Origin: Escherichia phage vB_EcoM_ECO78
Direction: 5' to 3' (one strand)
Length of the DNA stretch: 64,000 bases
Sequence record: PP526941.1
Shown piece by piece: positions 931-56,174 of this stretch (positions within the stretch are counted from its first letter, which is position 1; each line of letters opens with the position of its first letter). The notes under the pieces were generated by a model. It ran no database searches and was not told the DNA's origin. It saw only the letters and a program-made list of their open reading frames with translations. The translations under genes and the position numbers were made by a program.

Positions 931-1179
931 TTACTTCAGTGTTACCACAAAGTGACGAACTGCTTTTCGCGCAGCAGAAGCCAGAGGCTTAGCATATTTA
1001 AGTTCATCTTTTTCCTGAAGCTCAGCAGCTAATGCAGTTTGAGCAGGATTCAGATGTTTGAAATAACGCAGGATTTCAAGAGCTTCGGCTTCAACATCAA
1101 TAGATGCGCCATAGTTTTCGTGACCATTATTCCATGCGTTTCGTTGCAGTTCAAGAGCGTGTTGTAATTGTTTAATCAT
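931..1179 (-). CDS. rIII: rIII lysis inhibition accessory protein (82 aa)
   Basis: Size, sequence and position upstream of gene 31 match T4 rIII. Confidence 0.8.
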   Translation of the reverse strand: MIKQLQHALELQRNAWNNGHENYGASIDVEAEALEILRYFKHLNPAQTALAAELQEKDELKYAKPLASAARKAVRHFVVTLK

Positions 1180-1318
1180 TTAAAAATTCTCGTTAGAGAT
1201 TAAAACTCGGTAGTCACGTTCTTCTGAATTTCATCTTCTTTCGACAGATCTCTCAGTTGTAGACTACCACATAGAATTGTTCGGTTAACTTATTATTCCG
1301 ACACCCAATTCATATTAT

Positions 1319-1326
1319 TATTTATA
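1319..1326 (-). promoter_or_regulatory. late promoter motif TATAAATA
   Basis: Exact TATAAATA on minus strand just downstream of gene 31 stop, pointing toward rIII. Confidence 0.3.
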
Positions 1327-1662
1327 TCACTTATAAAGACACGGAATAGCTTTATAGTGACAAGTAACGAATTTTTGTTTAATTTCTTTTGGCTGCTTAA
1401 GACCCAGAGCTACAAAAGGATGCGGAACATTTCGAATTTGACCAACTGGAAGAGAAGTCAAATCACCAACTTCGCAGAAACCTTCAGGAACATCAGGACC
1501 GACAGAGTGAACTACACACAGTTCAGGAACTTCACCTTGAACACGTTTACCAATAATAAGTCCTGATTCTGTAACTTCTTCATCACCGGCTTGTGCAGGT
1601 TCAGAAACTAAAATAACATATTCACCGACAGCACGAATTGGTAGCTGTTGTACTTCAGACAT
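1327..1662 (-). CDS. 31: gp31 co-chaperonin (GroES analogue, 111 aa)
   Basis: 111 aa, sequence and position match T4 gp31. Confidence 0.9.
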
Positions 1663-1718
1663 CGTTTTTCCTTTTTGTTAACAGATGAATTAATAATAAC
1701 AAATAATTCTTAAAGCAT

Positions 1719-2027
1719 TTATTTACCGATAAATTGAAGCAAATGCTCAACTTTCATACCATTAACAGAAATCAATTTGTCAATAGAAAAACCTCGCCAT
1801 GCACCAAGTTCAACATCAAATACTGGAATCATGTCAGTAGATTCTTTCCGAGTAGATTCAGTCAATTTACCAGTTTGCATGGTTGGCATAAAGTCTGCAT
1901 CACGAGTACCTTTCATAGTACGAATAGTACCATCAGACTTTTCAAAAACTACGTTTGAAACACCCATGGACAATTTAGTTTTCAAAATTTCACGAATTGC
2001 TACTTTCTGTTCAGTTGTCAGTTTCAT
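1719..2027 (-). CDS. hypothetical protein (102 aa)
   Basis: ORF between 31 and cd (T4 31.1-like position). Confidence 0.5.
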   Translation of the reverse strand: MKLTTEQKVAIREILKTKLSMGVSNVVFEKSDGTIRTMKGTRDADFMPTMQTGKLTESTRKESTDMIPVFDVELGAWRGFSIDKLISVNGMKVEHLLQFIGK

Positions 2028-2264
2028 TTATTTACCTATTACAGTTTTAATATGGGTTGTTCCACGTTCTTTAAGGGTGGAAAGCAATTTTTGGCATTTT
2101 TCTAAATCAGATTTCCAACTATACGGCCTATCAATACTAGTCCAATCAGTTTTATAATACTGTTTCCATTTAGAGAAAAAATATTTCTTATACTCTACAG
2201 CAAATGAAATGTTCTCGTTAGAATAAGAACTAATTGCTGTGAGCTGTACCAAACGAAATTTCAT
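2028..2264 (-). CDS. hypothetical protein (78 aa)
   Basis: ORF abutting cd stop (T4 31.2-like position). Confidence 0.45.
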   Translation of the reverse strand: MKFRLVQLTAISSYSNENISFAVEYKKYFFSKWKQYYKTDWTSIDRPYSWKSDLEKCQKLLSTLKERGTTHIKTVIGK

Positions 2265-2845
2265 TATTCACCACAGAATTCGTTGATATTTTCCCAGTTT
2301 AACTTATTCAAGTTTTTCTTAGGAACATTAAACACTTCAATACCTGCATTTCGCAGAATATCATCCCAACCAGGTTTATTTTTATCGTATGTTTCGCAAT
2401 AAACCAGCTTTTTAATTCCAGATTGAGCTATCGCTTTTGCGCAATCTGGACAAGGAGAAAGTGTTACATACATAGTAGCACCTTCAATAGAAGAACCATT
2501 TCGTGCAGCAAACAAAATTGCGTTTAGTTCAGCATGAATTTCATTTTTAGATGACCATTCCGAGTGAGCACTACGATGTTCTTTCGCCAAGACAAAACGA
2601 TCAGTTGAACCAAATGATACGCATTCAGGCTTATGACCTTGAATGATAGTATGTTTAGGCTTATTTAACAACCAACCTTGCTCAGCAGCATAATCACAAC
2701 AGTTCACACCCCCTGCGGGGGAACCATTATACCCAGTAGAAATAATACGTCCATTCTTTTCAATTACTGCTCCTACCTTCCAGGAGCAGCATTTTGATTC
2801 TTGTGATACTAAATATGCAATTTGAAGTACTGTACTCGCTTTCAT
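2264..2845 (-). CDS. cd: dCMP deaminase (193 aa)
   Basis: HAE...PCPDC zinc-dependent cytidine/dCMP deaminase motifs; T4 cd size and position. Confidence 0.9.
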   Translation of the reverse strand: MKASTVLQIAYLVSQESKCCSWKVGAVIEKNGRIISTGYNGSPAGGVNCCDYAAEQGWLLNKPKHTIIQGHKPECVSFGSTDRFVLAKEHRSAHSEWSSKNEIHAELNAILFAARNGSSIEGATMYVTLSPCPDCAKAIAQSGIKKLVYCETYDKNKPGWDDILRNAGIEVFNVPKKNLNKLNWENINEFCGE

Positions 2846-3818: not shown

Positions 3819-5022
<1,204 letters not shown>

Positions 5023-16310: not shown

Positions 16311-16964
16311 TTAATACTTACAAGATTTCACAGTTTCAATGAAAACATTTTTAGCTTTCTGTGAATCAATATTTAAAATTTTTCTATAAGCCTTTAACTT
16401 TATAGAATAATTATTCCAGACTAAATTATCAGTCTGTTCATCATGTTTATCAATTATATTTAAAAATGAATCAAGCAAGATAAACGTCTCAAACGAAATT
16501 ATGTTCGATTGCAGAAGTTTAAAAATATAACTTGACTGAACTTTTGGATTATATTCAAAGATTTCTTTAAAAGCAGAAACTTCAACTTTTTTACTAAAAT
16601 AATAAATGTTGCGAATATCTTCTTCAAACTTAAATTTAATTTGCTTTAAGCGTCCGATATATTCACGATAAAACACAAGTGCATCAGCGTCAGAGATGTC
16701 ACCAATCCAAGCATCTTGGTTAGCAACCAAATTGCTTATAAAGATTAAAGCAAGTTCCTTTAATTTATATTTTTCTGATAACTTCTGGAAAAAATACTTA
16801 TCCCTTCGCTTTTGATAAGCGGCATCAGACACCCGCATGCACCAATTATACTTAATAACATCATACTTTCCATTCATATGTTGTTTTATCATTAAGTATA
16901 ATTTATAAACTGATTTACCATCAATGTATCTTTCACCACCAGCAGGCATGCGGAGTTTAATCAT
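16311..16964 (-). CDS. 59: gp59 helicase loader (217 aa)
   Basis: Size, sequence and position between 32 and 33. Confidence 0.9.
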   Translation of the reverse strand: MIKLRMPAGGERYIDGKSVYKLYLMIKQHMNGKYDVIKYNWCMRVSDAAYQKRRDKYFFQKLSEKYKLKELALIFISNLVANQDAWIGDISDADALVFYREYIGRLKQIKFKFEEDIRNIYYFSKKVEVSAFKEIFEYNPKVQSSYIFKLLQSNIISFETFILLDSFLNIIDKHDEQTDNLVWNNYSIKLKAYRKILNIDSQKAKNVFIETVKSCKY

Positions 16965-53433: not shown

Positions 53434-53643
53434 TTAAATTACATGATTATTTATAATAAATTCTTGCGGAACGTTAAAATAACCAATTTTAGTTAATATA
53501 ACAACATCACCATTAATAATTACCGGAGAATAATCTTCTGGAGCATTAAATTTCCAATGGGCTCTAATATTATATCCGTCAGAACCAAATGCTCGACTAG
53601 CCGGTCTCCCAGCTTTTTGCCATGCATAAAAATCAAATTTCAT
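53434..53643 (-). CDS. hypothetical protein (69 aa)
   Basis: ORF between 56 and soc. Confidence 0.45.
   Translation of the reverse strand: MKFDFYAWQKAGRPASRAFGSDGYNIRAHWKFNAPEDYSPVIINGDVVILTKIGYFNVPQEFIINNHVI
53448..53455 (-). promoter_or_regulatory. late promoter TATAAATA for soc
   Basis: Exact motif about 30 nt upstream of soc ATG on minus strand. Confidence 0.6.
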
Positions 53644-53834
53644 TTTGAATGCTCTATAATTAATTTTAAAGCTTCTTCACTGACAAAAATTTCGTCAGGA
53701 CCTTCTATAATTTCAACCATACGAAGTTGATTAGTTAAGAGCTCACACACGAGCTCTTTGTTATAATCTTTAAATAGCTGGTCAATACGTTTCTTATGGG
53801 CTTTCTTAAGCTGACGTTTATTTAAACGAGCCAT
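53640..53834 (-). CDS. hypothetical basic protein (64 aa)
   Basis: ORF with ATGA overlaps on both sides. Confidence 0.45.
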   Translation of the reverse strand: MARLNKRQLKKAHKKRIDQLFKDYNKELVCELLTNQLRMVEIIEGPDEIFVSEEALKLIIEHSK

Positions 53835-54352
53835 TAATAGCCTCGGTCTTGACGAGCGAAGTTTTCAGCATTTTTCAGATAATAAAGTTTAAAGATTTCT
53901 TCAGCTGACATTCCAAGAGCAATGAATTTATTCATGAAAAAGTGAAACTGGTCAATCAGTTCAAATTTAATTTCAAGCTGATCTTCAGGAGATAAATCTT
54001 GAATTTTCTTGGATTGCATTTCAGAATAACGTTTCTTCCAAGGTTTCCATACAGCAGAAGCTTCTTTTTCGCCATTACTCATACCACCAAGAGAAGTATA
54101 TAGCTCGCGAGTTTCGTCTGCGATATAATCGTCTTGGTTTCGCAGCCAAGCAAGAACTTCTCCTGCAGTTTCAAGTGAATCGGGATGACGATTTGTTTCT
54201 GGTTTATCATTAGCCAAACGAATCTGTAAATGCCGCTGCATATCAAGCATAACCTGCAGTGGGTCAATATTGTGCATAATATTCTCAGCATATGCACGAT
54301 TTGCTTTATCAACACCTTCGATCAAATGAGCACATTCATTAAAGTAAGCCAT
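53834..54352 (-). CDS. 56: dCTP pyrophosphatase gp56 (172 aa from MAYFNECAH)
   Basis: ATG at 54350-54352 with AAAGGAAA RBS; MazG-like; T4 gp56 size. Confidence 0.8.
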   Translation of the reverse strand: MAYFNECAHLIEGVDKANRAYAENIMHNIDPLQVMLDMQRHLQIRLANDKPETNRHPDSLETAGEVLAWLRNQDDYIADETRELYTSLGGMSNGEKEASAVWKPWKKRYSEMQSKKIQDLSPEDQLEIKFELIDQFHFFMNKFIALGMSAEEIFKLYYLKNAENFARQDRGY

Positions 54353-54423
54353 TATTTTTCCTTTCAATTCATGGGTTAGTAGATTAATTATACAATAAAT
54401 ATATAAAGCAATAAGGAGGATAT

Positions 54424-54624
54424 ATGGTACAAAAATTAATGGCACTTGTTAATGCCATAAAAGGTAATAAAAAACGTATAGCTTTTACTATTTCTGCTAT
54501 GATAGGAATTTTACTCTGGAATTTTGTTTTATCACCAATTGCTATTGCTCATGGTGTTAATATTCCAGTAATTACTCTTGATACATTCGTAGATTTAGCA
54601 TTTGCTTTGGTTGGGTTAATTTAA
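54424..54624 (+). CDS. small membrane protein (66 aa), plus strand
   Basis: AAGGAGGA Shine-Dalgarno 4 nt before ATG; two hydrophobic helices. Confidence 0.45.
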   Translation: MVQKLMALVNAIKGNKKRIAFTISAMIGILLWNFVLSPIAIAHGVNIPVITLDTFVDLAFALVGLI

Positions 54625-55649
54625 ATCTTAGCATATTTAGATAGCCGCATTTTAGCCATCAACCCCTGGGCAATATTATTTTTCATATATTCCATAATTT
54701 GTTCAGGGGCTGCACCTTCCTTTCTAATCATATCATTAACATCTTTTGATTTCCAGGGAGATTTATCCCAAAACATAACCCTTTCTCCTGCATCAACTAA
54801 TTTAGTCATTCGTTTAATAGTGTCAGGGTGACGAGGTTCATTATCTAAGACCCACACGCGTCTATCTTTAAATGGAACAACTTCTAGGTCTAATTGACCA
54901 CCAGTAATAGCTATACCATTTTCAATAAAAAGTGAATCTATAGGTCCTTCTAGAACATATACATCACCATCTTTGACTCGTTCAACTCCATAGATTTTTG
55001 TTGCCTCAGGATAAGCTTTGATGGTGATATATTTTTGAGGAGCATCTTTCTTTAATGCACGTCCTTGAAAAGACTCAGCTTTTCCATTAGCATTATAAAT
55101 TGGAATAACAAGACGAGGCTCAGGTATTTCCTTTTTATATGTTCCCGGTGCTATGCTATTAACTAATTTAGGCCATTCAGTTGTAAACCAAAGATATTTC
55201 CATTTATCCTTTGGAATACAACGAGCTTTTACATATTTTATAATTGGATGGTCTTCCGCCAGTTTATCTAATCTAATACATGACGGAAGAGATTTAATTA
55301 TTTTCTTCTCAGGTTGTTTAGGAAGTTCTTTAGGTTTTTCTACTGGCCGACTTTTACCTTTTTCTTTTCTTATTTCAAAGATATACTCACGATATAAATC
55401 AGGTTCAAACTCCTTTAAATATATTCCGATTGGTGCATGATAGTTACAGTTATAACAATGAATATTTCCTTCATTATTATCACCATAATACCATCCACGA
55501 GCTTTATTCTGGTCGGTTTTTGAATCTCCACAAACAGGGCATCTAAACCGTAATTTAAAAGTTGAACTATTATTTACTTGTGTGAATTTAGGTAAATGAG
55601 CTAATGCACGATATGCAAACTCATTATCAATCCAAGGTATTGATGACAT
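54621..55649 (-). CDS. 61: gp61 DNA primase (342 aa)
   Basis: N-terminal CPVCG...CYNC zinc ribbon and TOPRIM region; T4 gp61 size. Confidence 0.9.
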   Translation of the reverse strand: MSSIPWIDNEFAYRALAHLPKFTQVNNSSTFKLRFRCPVCGDSKTDQNKARGWYYGDNNEGNIHCYNCNYHAPIGIYLKEFEPDLYREYIFEIRKEKGKSRPVEKPKELPKQPEKKIIKSLPSCIRLDKLAEDHPIIKYVKARCIPKDKWKYLWFTTEWPKLVNSIAPGTYKKEIPEPRLVIPIYNANGKAESFQGRALKKDAPQKYITIKAYPEATKIYGVERVKDGDVYVLEGPIDSLFIENGIAITGGQLDLEVVPFKDRRVWVLDNEPRHPDTIKRMTKLVDAGERVMFWDKSPWKSKDVNDMIRKEGAAPEQIMEYMKNNIAQGLMAKMRLSKYAKI

Positions 55650-55817: not shown

Positions 55818-56174
55818 TTAACCTCTATTCATAAAAGCATTAAAAATTTGGTCATCAATCGACGGAATAGCAATCTTTTCTGCATCATTTAGCAAATCAT
55901 TAATTTCATCAGATAGCATAACGCATGTACCTTTATTTCCTGTAATTGTTACTGCACAATTACGAACGTTTTCTTTATCAAATTTTAGGTTAATATTTTC
56001 GTAGTGAAAATCCTTTAATGCCGAATATATTTTTAAAATGAAATTGTCTTTTACTACAATAAACCCAACCTCACTATTAAAACGTGGTTCATGGAAACTG
56101 TAATAAACCTTTTCATCTATAAAATCGTATGAAATTTTTTCCATTTTTAAATATGAAAATTCAGAACTATACAT
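55818..56174 (-). CDS. hypothetical protein (118 aa)
   Basis: ORF in 41-61 interval. Confidence 0.5.
   Translation of the reverse strand: MYSSEFSYLKMEKISYDFIDEKVYYSFHEPRFNSEVGFIVVKDNFILKIYSALKDFHYENINLKFDKENVRNCAVTITGNKGTCVMLSDEINDLLNDAEKIAIPSIDDQIFNAFMNRG

What the first reader, a model, noticed from the sequence alone, without database searches (positions are those of the whole stretch)
54353..54624. Plus-strand small membrane ORF in the 56-61 gap, and no dam-sized gene there
The only well-supported plus-strand ORF inside the minus-strand early block has a near-consensus Shine-Dalgarno (AAGGAGGA) and encodes a 66-aa protein with two hydrophobic helices. Its stop codon overlaps the stop codon of gene 61 on the opposite strand. 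From memory T4 carries dam between 56 and 61; no methyltransferase-like ORF is present in this window.
Basis: partly seen in the sequence, partly recalled or inferred. Interest (0 to 1): 0.5.

Follow-up and report, generated by a model that had tools for sequence, protein, structure and literature searches.

The report
Conserved small late membrane gene dam.1
The plus-strand 66-codon ORF between genes 56 and 61 is a real small membrane-protein gene of unknown function, conserved across T4-like phages and called dam.1 in phage T4T but missing from the T4 reference annotation; the missing dam methylase is an ordinary cassette polymorphism.

Summary
There is a 66-aa plus-strand ORF at 54424..54624 with an AAGGAGGA Shine-Dalgarno. 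Its stop codon shares two bases with the stop of primase gene 61. No Dam homolog occurs anywhere in the 64 kb window.

The ORF is under purifying selection: dN/dS is 0.12-0.30, and codon-position differences against Mosigvirus are 30/12/42. It is found in 692 phage records, apparently always converging on gene 61. It matches PHROG phrog_2024 (function unknown). Homologs occur in Tequatrovirus, Mosigvirus, Dhakavirus, Jiaodavirus and a Karamvirus-like phage.

T4 itself carries this ORF next to dam. The T4 reference records do not annotate it. T4T names it dam.1, and most other genomes call it a hypothetical protein.

A late-promoter box (NATAAATA; a perfect TATAAATA in Dhakavirus) lies 14-24 nt upstream of the start codon in 7 of 8 lineages. 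The gene sits on the strand that only late transcription uses, so it is most likely a late gene.

The product is probably an N-in inner-membrane protein with an invariant W-N…P…G…P core at the periplasmic end of its helix. Its function is unknown.

dam is an optional cassette. About 180 of about 500 Tequatrovirus records have it and 294 have the window's dam-less layout. This is an ordinary, already annotated feature.

The parts
54424..54624 (+). dam.1-family CDS (66 aa including the start; TAA stop at 54622-54624); small membrane protein, PHROG phrog_2024
   Evidence: ORF listed. phrog_2024 match at E=8e-31. 692 phage records by tblastn. dN/dS 0.12-0.30. Codon-position differences 30/12/42 against Mosigvirus, with the frame open in all 12 loci. 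Named dam.1 in T4T.
54413..54420 (+). Shine-Dalgarno AAGGAGGA, 3 nt before the ATG
   Evidence: Read directly. AGGAG or GGAG is kept in all lineages. RNA folding does not sequester it (z = 0.02).
54394..54401 (+). Putative gp55-dependent late promoter box AATAAATA (the A(-13) variant of TATAAATA); predicted transcript start near 54407
   Evidence: ATAAATA lies 14-24 nt upstream of the ATG in 7 of 8 lineages although the flanks are unrelated, and it is a perfect TATAAATA in Dhakavirus MX01. Nine of the 50 listed T4 late promoters have A(-13) (PMC2988020). The motif count alone is not above chance. Transcription has not been shown.
54387..54412 (-). Putative MotA-dependent middle promoter for gene 56, the positional equivalent of T4 P(M)16.53 (oriA promoter): MotA box ATTGCTTTA at 54412-54404, an 11-nt spacer, and -10 TATAAT at 54392-54387. 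The late box lies within this spacer on the opposite strand.
   Evidence: Sequence. Consensus (a/t)(a/t)(a/t)TGCTTtA, 12+/-1 bp from the -10, from PMC2988021. The distance from the -10 to the gene 56 ATG is 34 nt, the same as in the X01416 annotation of T4. This is a consensus match only.
54439..54458 (-). Hairpin followed by a T-run on the minus strand, inside codons 6-12 of dam.1; a possible terminator for gene 61 transcripts
   Evidence: Terminator-like site. Folding energy -8.9 kcal/mol, z = -2.4. Identical in Tequatrovirus but absent in Mosigvirus, so it is probably secondary.
54621..55649 (-). Gene 61 (DNA primase), convergent with dam.1; its stop codon overlaps the dam.1 stop
   Evidence: phrog_47, E=6e-107. 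The TTTAAAT junction is conserved in Tequatrovirus and in two of the three Mosigvirus loci.
53834..54352 (-). Gene 56 (dCTPase); left border of the gap where T4 carries dam
   Evidence: (phrog_173, E=2e-44).

Best explanation
The ORF is a genuine protein-coding gene, the ortholog of dam.1 of phage T4T. Shown: it is conserved as a protein in at least five genera of T4-like phages, apparently always convergent with primase gene 61. Inferred: it lies on the clockwise strand, which only late transcription uses, and a conserved NATAAATA box plus a strong Shine-Dalgarno sit just upstream; it is therefore transcribed late by gp55-RNA polymerase from its own promoter, giving a leader of about 17 nt. 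Where the two stop codons overlap, as here, the transcript necessarily runs antisense into gene 61. Inferred: the 66-aa product has a basic cytoplasmic N-terminus (+5), one transmembrane helix (about residues 19-42) and a 24-residue C-terminal segment on the periplasmic side. This segment carries the invariant P38/G44/P48 turn and a conserved acidic residue. Speculative: like other very small membrane proteins, it probably acts by binding a larger phage or host inner-membrane protein at the periplasmic leaflet late in infection, with an envelope, lysis-timing or accessory role. The absence of dam is unrelated to the ORF. dam, with or without a neighbouring DpnII-like ORF, is an optional cassette inserted between the gene 56 promoter and the dam.1 promoter in some T-even phages. 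This phage has the cassette-free layout.
For: Coding status: dN/dS is 0.12-0.30 among nine Tequatrovirus copies and the amino-acid changes are mostly I/V. Against Mosigvirus the DNA is 57% identical, with differences 30/12/42 by codon position, and the frame is open in all 12 loci. Distribution: 692 phage records; in all 60 rows sampled across the ranking but one the match lies beside an annotated primase or a gene left as 'hypothetical'. phrog_2024 is matched by the window (8e-31) and by the Dhakavirus, Jiaodavirus and Karamvirus-like homologs (1e-15 to 5e-28). The 56-ORF-61 synteny holds in ST0, L013, L016, MY742, VIPKPNUMC01 and MX01. Invariant residues are W32, N33, P38, G44 and P48. Late expression: the ATAAATA box is conserved in 7 of 8 lineages with otherwise unrelated flanks and is a perfect TATAAATA in MX01. 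A(-13) is the commonest late-promoter variant, and all early and middle transcripts are counterclockwise (PMC2988020). No sigma-70-like + strand promoter lies upstream, and the Shine-Dalgarno is unstructured. Membrane protein: hydropathy and charge distribution; AlphaFold gives pLDDT 73 with helices 2-13, 16-42 and 52-63. dam cassette: T4 has 56-dam-ORF-61, T2 and MX01 have 56-dam-phrog_8706-ORF-61, and the window, Mosigvirus and Jiaodavirus have no dam. 294 records have the contiguous dam-less layout, against 182 with T4-type Dam and 180 with the T4-type junction. PP01 positions 1-135 kb plus the window amount to a whole genome equivalent without a Dam homolog.
Against: No transcript, ribosome-footprint or peptide evidence could be obtained. 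The T4 dRNA-seq transcription-start table (bioRxiv 10.1101/2024.04.04.588121) is not held as text. AATAAATA occurs in the window no more often than chance (8 observed, 13 expected). One lineage (L016) has only TATTAATA, closer to the ATG. There is no homology to any protein of known function: Pfam, NCBIfam, PADLOC and PDB gave nothing, and the family forms only 6 clusters among 1.84 billion representatives. The functional part is therefore conjecture. Topology is also uncertain: one helix or two, and possibly cleavage at an A-x-A-like site after residue 42.
Confidence: 0.8

Rival explanations
1. The ORF is not translated. Its conservation reflects overlapping cis-elements on the other strand: the gene 61 3' UTR and terminator, and the promoters for dam or 56.
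For: A minus-strand hairpin with a T-run lies inside the ORF. The spacer holds a MotA-type promoter. The T4 reference and the curated PP01 annotation omit the ORF.
Against: The third-position excess of substitutions, dN/dS of 0.12-0.30 and 17-54% protein identity across genera with invariant residues, at 57% DNA identity to Mosigvirus, are signatures of a coding sequence. The hairpin is not conserved outside Tequatrovirus. The Shine-Dalgarno and start codon are conserved everywhere.
Confidence: 0.04
2. The main function is RNA-level. A late clockwise transcript starting here runs antisense through gene 61 and shuts off primase expression late in infection, and the peptide is secondary.
For: The stop codons overlap and no + strand terminator was found within 1.4 kb downstream. 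Both strands of T4 DNA are transcribed at different times at several sites (PMC2988020).
Against: In Jiaodavirus and lineage L016 the genes do not overlap, and a stable hairpin (-11 to -12 kcal/mol) sits between them, which would stop such read-through. Protein-level constraint remains strong in every lineage.
Confidence: 0.08
3. It is a holin or another lysis or lysis-inhibition component.
For: It is small, membrane-embedded and probably late. One UniProt entry of the family is auto-named 'Holin'.
Against: It matches no holin family in Pfam or PHROGs. It lacks a charged C-terminal tail, ending in LVGLI. It lies about 40-50 kb from rI and e, and separately from t and the spanins, in related genomes. 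T4 lysis is already accounted for by t, e, rI, rIII and pseT.2/.3 (established knowledge). No paralog of it exists in the genome.
Confidence: 0.1
4. It is a secreted pre-peptide. Residues 1-42 act as a long signal peptide cleaved after A-I-A (40-42), releasing a 24-residue hydrophobic periplasmic peptide.
For: The pattern P38-x-A40-x-[A/S/T]42 | [H/N/Q]43-G44 is conserved across the family and fits the -3/-1 rule of signal peptidase I with a helix-breaker at -5 (my own reading of the alignment).
Against: The hydrophobic stretch (about 19-24 residues) and the 18-residue N-region are much longer than in typical cleaved signal peptides. W32-N33 and the N-terminal AIKGNKK are conserved, which is unusual for a discarded leader. 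No signal-peptide predictor was available.
Confidence: 0.12

Closest known systems
dam.1 of Enterobacteria phage T4T (T4Tp032, ADJ39749.1); RB32ORF030w (so labelled in the RB51 record); PHROG phrog_2024
   Same: The T4 strains, including T4T, carry this ORF at 92% protein identity to the window copy. Length is 66 aa, with the same position and orientation and the same stop overlap with gene 61. The window protein matches phrog_2024 over its full length.
   Different: In T4T and T4 it follows dam (hence the name). Here it directly follows the gene 56 promoter, because the dam cassette is absent. No function is attached to any of these names.
T4 late genes driven by variant late promoters (A(-13) class, AATAAATA)
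   Same: The box sequence, its distance to the Shine-Dalgarno and ATG, the AT-rich downstream segment and the clockwise polarity all fit.
   Different: No mapped 5' end and no shown gp55/gp33 dependence. It is isolated in a ~75-kb block that is otherwise entirely counterclockwise.
Very small regulatory inner-membrane proteins (for example E. coli MgrB and AcrZ; T4 Imm, RI)
   Same: Size of 50-100 aa, a single helix with a basic cytoplasmic end, and conserved residues near the periplasmic leaflet. The comparison itself is from general knowledge.
   Different: No sequence similarity to any of them: nothing was found in PDB or Pfam, and no paralog exists in the phage genome. This is an analogy of type, not membership.
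T4 Dam (GATC N6-adenine methyltransferase) at the 56-61 locus
   Same: Same genomic slot between genes 56 and 61.
   Different: Absent here. No homolog in the window, nor in the rest of the genome of the close relative PP01.

Membership tests
phrog_2024 / dam.1 family | Full-length sequence match to the family profile | tested here: met
   E=8.2e-31, residues 2-66 against profile positions 1-65 of 65.
phrog_2024 / dam.1 family | Position: plus-strand gene converging on primase gene 61, downstream of gene 56 | tested here: met
   Window. The same layout occurs in T4, T2, ST0, L013, L016, MY742, VIPKPNUMC01 and MX01.
phrog_2024 / dam.1 family | Invariant core W-N-(F/L/Y)-x4-P-x-A-x3-G-x3-P with an acidic residue at position 53 | tested here: met
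   W32, N33, P38, A40, G44, P48 and D53 are present in the window protein.
T4 late gene (gp55-dependent) | TATAAATA-type box about one helical turn upstream of the transcript start | tested here: inconclusive
   AATAAATA at 54394-54401 is the A(-13) variant found at 9 of 50 T4 late promoters. Its position is conserved in 7 of 8 lineages, but the motif alone is at chance frequency.
T4 late gene (gp55-dependent) | Transcript 5' end at the box; dependence on gp55, gp33 and gp45 and on replication | not testable with these tools
   The dRNA-seq table of the T4 study is not held as text.
Holins | Match to a holin family profile | tested here: not met
   No Pfam hit up to E=10. The only PHROG hit is phrog_2024, function unknown.
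Holins | Charged hydrophilic C-terminal tail after the last membrane helix | tested here: not met
   The protein ends ...AFALVGLI, and the net charge of residues 43-66 is -2 with no basic residue.
Holins | Lethal, timed permeabilisation of the inner membrane | not testable with these tools
   Requires an expression experiment.
Dam-family methyltransferase at the 56-61 locus | ORF of about 260 aa with a DPPY catalytic motif, homologous to T4 Dam | tested here: not met
   The gap is 268 nt. The best tblastn E in the whole window is 2.6, and no DPPY-type motif lies in a long ORF.
Cleaved Sec signal peptide | Small residues at -3 and -1, a helix breaker near -5, and an h-region of about 7-15 residues | tested here: inconclusive
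   A40 and A42 with P38 fit, and the pattern is conserved. The hydrophobic stretch is about 19-24 residues and the n-region is 18 residues. No predictor was available.

The most novel reading that the evidence does not exclude
dam.1 is a functionally important late inner-membrane factor, conserved across the enterobacterial T-even-type genera examined and overlooked because the T4 reference annotation omits it. It could, for example, modulate envelope integrity, lysis timing or a host membrane-bound defence through its invariant periplasmic-leaflet motif. Its late transcript could also double as an antisense brake on primase mRNA.
Probability: 0.15. Interest if true: 0.5.

Novelty: already known. 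Interest (0 to 1): 0.3.

Why it matters
The main practical point concerns annotation. A gene conserved in hundreds of T4-like phages is missing from the T4 reference records (AF158101, NC_000866), and the curated PP01 annotation, which uses T4 gene names, also lacks it. Studies that use such gene lists, including transcriptomics, proteomics and knockdown screens, would not see it. It is the only clockwise gene in the ~75-kb counterclockwise early/middle block, so it offers a clean test of late-promoter use inside early DNA. Its function is open. The absence of dam shows only that dam is an accessory cassette in T-even phages, which agrees with its known dispensability.

Tried and rejected
- Pfam, NCBIfam and PADLOC scans of the protein gave no hits.
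- A profile search of PDB sequences gave only noise at E>0.3.
- An HMM search of 1.84 billion representative proteins found only 6 clusters, all from the family itself.
- A Foldseek search of BFVD returned the family itself and two 63-aa proteins (one from Enterobacter phage CIP9) at 27% identity, with no functional label beyond an automatic 'Holin'.
- A profile search of all ORFs of PP01 plus the window found no paralog; RI was not matched. A shared FVLSP pentapeptide with RI, recalled from memory, is therefore taken as coincidence.
- Literature searches for the sequence, phrog_2024, dam.1, RB32ORF030w, T4 Ribo-seq and unannotated T4 genes found nothing relevant.
- The T4 dRNA-seq supplement does not contain the transcription-start table as text.
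- The Miller 2003 T4 genome review is not held.
- The labels 'putative head morphogenesis protein' (T2 and T6 records) and 'virion structural protein [STEP3]' were rejected as transferred or machine-predicted labels with no supporting homology.
- Read-through of gene 61 past its stop was rejected. The gene 61 frame stays open across the ORF in most genomes, but this follows from the ORF having no Tyr and few His/Gln codons, and the window has a stop in that frame.
- The minus-strand hairpin as the reason for conservation was rejected, because it is absent in Mosigvirus.

Full report
**1. The observation**

The window is a mosaic T-even-type (Tequatrovirus) genome. The best matches over 24 kb are 95-96% identical, and the locus itself is 99% identical to phage Ec_MI-02 and 98.8% to PP01.

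Gene 56 (dCTPase) is 53834..54352 on the minus strand. Gene 61 (primase) is 54621..55649 on the minus strand.

In the 268-nt gap there is one plus-strand ORF, 54424..54624, of 66 codons. AAGGAGGA lies at 54413-54420. The plus strand reads TTAA at 54621-54624, so the TAA of the ORF and the TAA of gene 61 share two bases.

tblastn with T4 Dam finds nothing in the 64 kb (best E 2.6), and no DPPY-type motif sits in a long ORF. T4 does carry dam between 56 and 61.

**2. Is it a gene?**

ORF length alone proves nothing here, because antisense ORFs of 65-95 aa are common nearby. The evidence comes from comparison.

- tblastn finds the protein in 692 phage records. In the sampled rows it lies beside the primase gene, apart from rows where the neighbours are unannotated or left as 'hypothetical'.
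- Among nine Tequatrovirus copies, pairwise dN/dS is 0.12-0.30. Variable sites by codon position are 8/2/12, and the amino-acid replacements are mostly I/V.
- Against Mosigvirus the DNA is only 57% identical, with differences of 30/12/42 by codon position. The frame is open in all 12 loci, while four of the other five frames are full of stops.
- Metagenomic relatives at 48-68% identity keep the 56-ORF-61 order.
- Homologs at 17-26% identity in Dhakavirus MX01, a Jiaodavirus and a Karamvirus-like Enterobacter phage sit in the same slot. They match the same PHROG, phrog_2024, at E 1e-15 to 5e-28.
- W32, N33, P38, G44 and P48 are invariant, and A40 and G64 nearly so.

This is a protein under purifying selection.

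**3. What it is called**

T4 itself has the ORF (NC_000866 17738..17938, 92% identical) between dam and 61. Neither AF158101.6, NC_000866.4 nor the 1984 record X01416 annotates it.

The T4T record names it dam.1 (T4Tp032). The RB51 record labels it RB32ORF030w, and most later genomes say 'hypothetical protein'. The curated, T4-based annotation of PP01 omits it.

No paper in the library mentions the sequence, dam.1 or phrog_2024.

**4. Expression (inferred)**

The ORF lies on the clockwise strand. All T4 early and middle transcripts are counterclockwise, and only late transcripts have either polarity (PMC2988020).

At 54394-54401 the plus strand reads AATAAATA. This is the consensus late box TATAAATA with A at -13, the commonest variant (9 of 50 listed T4 late promoters).

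The motif count in the window is not above chance, but its position is conserved. ATAAATA lies 14-24 nt upstream of the ATG in these lineages:

- the window type
- the T4/T2 type
- Mosigvirus
- lineages L013 and L018
- the Karamvirus-like phage
- Jiaodavirus
- Dhakavirus, where it is a perfect TATAAATA

Everything upstream of the box is unrelated between these layouts. Only lineage L016 lacks it.

No sigma-70-like plus-strand promoter lies upstream, and the ribosome-binding site is unstructured.

The same 71-nt spacer also carries a minus-strand match to a MotA-dependent middle promoter. It consists of ATTGCTTTA, an 11-nt spacer and TATAAT. Its -10 is 34 nt from the gene 56 ATG, exactly as for the annotated P(M)16.53 of T4. 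The two divergent promoters are therefore interleaved.

**5. The transcript's 3' end**

In the window there is no room for a terminator, and none was found on the plus strand within 1.4 kb. A late transcript would therefore be antisense to gene 61.

In Jiaodavirus and L016 the genes do not overlap, and a stable hairpin (-11 to -12 kcal/mol) separates them. Antisense control of primase therefore cannot be the conserved function.

**6. The protein (inferred)**

- The N-terminal 18 residues carry +5 net charge. Residues 19-42 are strongly hydrophobic, and residues 43-66 have charge -2.
- AlphaFold (pLDDT 73) gives helices 2-13, 16-42 and 52-63.
- In the Karamvirus-like and Jiaodavirus homologs the C-terminal segment contains E, H, R or K and is too polar to cross the membrane.
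- The family is therefore best read as N-in, single-pass, with a short periplasmic-side amphipathic helix.
- The conserved P38-x-A40-x-[A/S/T]42 | [H/N/Q]43-G44 also resembles a signal-peptidase site. Cleavage cannot be excluded.
- No homology to any characterised protein was found, and there is no paralog in the genome.

My best guess is a small late membrane protein that acts by binding a larger membrane protein. This is conjecture.

**7. dam**

Layouts seen:

| Layout | Phages |
|---|---|
| 56-dam.1-61 | window, PP01, Mosigvirus, Jiaodavirus |
| 56-dam-dam.1-61 | T4 |
| 56-dam-phrog_8706-dam.1-61 | T2, Dhakavirus MX01 |

In the phage collection, 294 records have the contiguous dam-less layout. 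182 records have T4-type Dam at 90% identity or more, and 180 have the T4-type junction.

PP01 positions 1-135 kb plus the window together cover a whole genome equivalent and contain no Dam homolog (best E 0.07). dam is thus an optional cassette, and its absence here is ordinary.

**8. Verdict**

The finding is accurate, but it describes an already annotated, uncharacterised gene family and a common polymorphism.

The residual interest has three parts. The gene is missing from the T4 reference annotation. It is the only clockwise gene in a ~75-kb counterclockwise block. Its function is unknown although it is conserved across five genera.

Noticed in passing
L003 (T2) 1865-2410 (-); L024 (MX01) 1113-1673 (-); remnant in L001 (T4) about 4127-4205: The 181-186-aa ORF (phrog_8706) between dam and dam.1 in T2 and Dhakavirus MX01 gives sub-threshold hits to DpnII (a GATC restriction endonuclease) and to the PADLOC REase_II model, over the same profile region in both orthologs. 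The dam cassette may therefore descend from a DpnII-like restriction-modification module. T4 appears to keep only the 3' ~75 nt of this ORF.
   Followed up: partly
window 53434-53834 (-): Between soc and gene 56 the window has two small ORFs (69 aa, DUF7422/phrog_5773; 64 aa, phrog_5782) where T4 has the homing endonuclease segF. This is the T2-type arrangement.
   Followed up: partly
window 54387-54412: A MotA-box middle promoter for gene 56 on the minus strand and the putative late box for dam.1 on the plus strand are interleaved within 26 bp. In Mosigvirus the same two elements are back-to-back rather than interleaved.
   Followed up: partly
L018 267-464 and 473-670 (+); phages TH15 and TH44 (two places each): Some phages carry two tandem dam.1 paralogs, one of the T4 type and one of the Dhakavirus type. 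The second copy has its own ribosome-binding site.
   Followed up: partly
window 54424-54620, minus-strand frame of gene 61: The reading frame of gene 61 stays open past its stop codon across the whole dam.1 ORF in T4, T2 and Mosigvirus (0 stops) and has 1 stop in the window. This is probably compositional, because dam.1 has no Tyr and only one His and one Gln.
   Followed up: partly
window 55818-56174 (-): The gene 61.2 homolog is 118 aa here, as in T2 and PP01, against 208 aa in T4 (627-nt CDS). This is another indel polymorphism in the 61-41 interval.
   Followed up: no
L019 (PP01) 16566-16833; NC_000866 17626-17934: The curated PP01 annotation and both T4 reference records leave dam.1 unannotated, so gene lists derived from them miss it.
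   Followed up: yes
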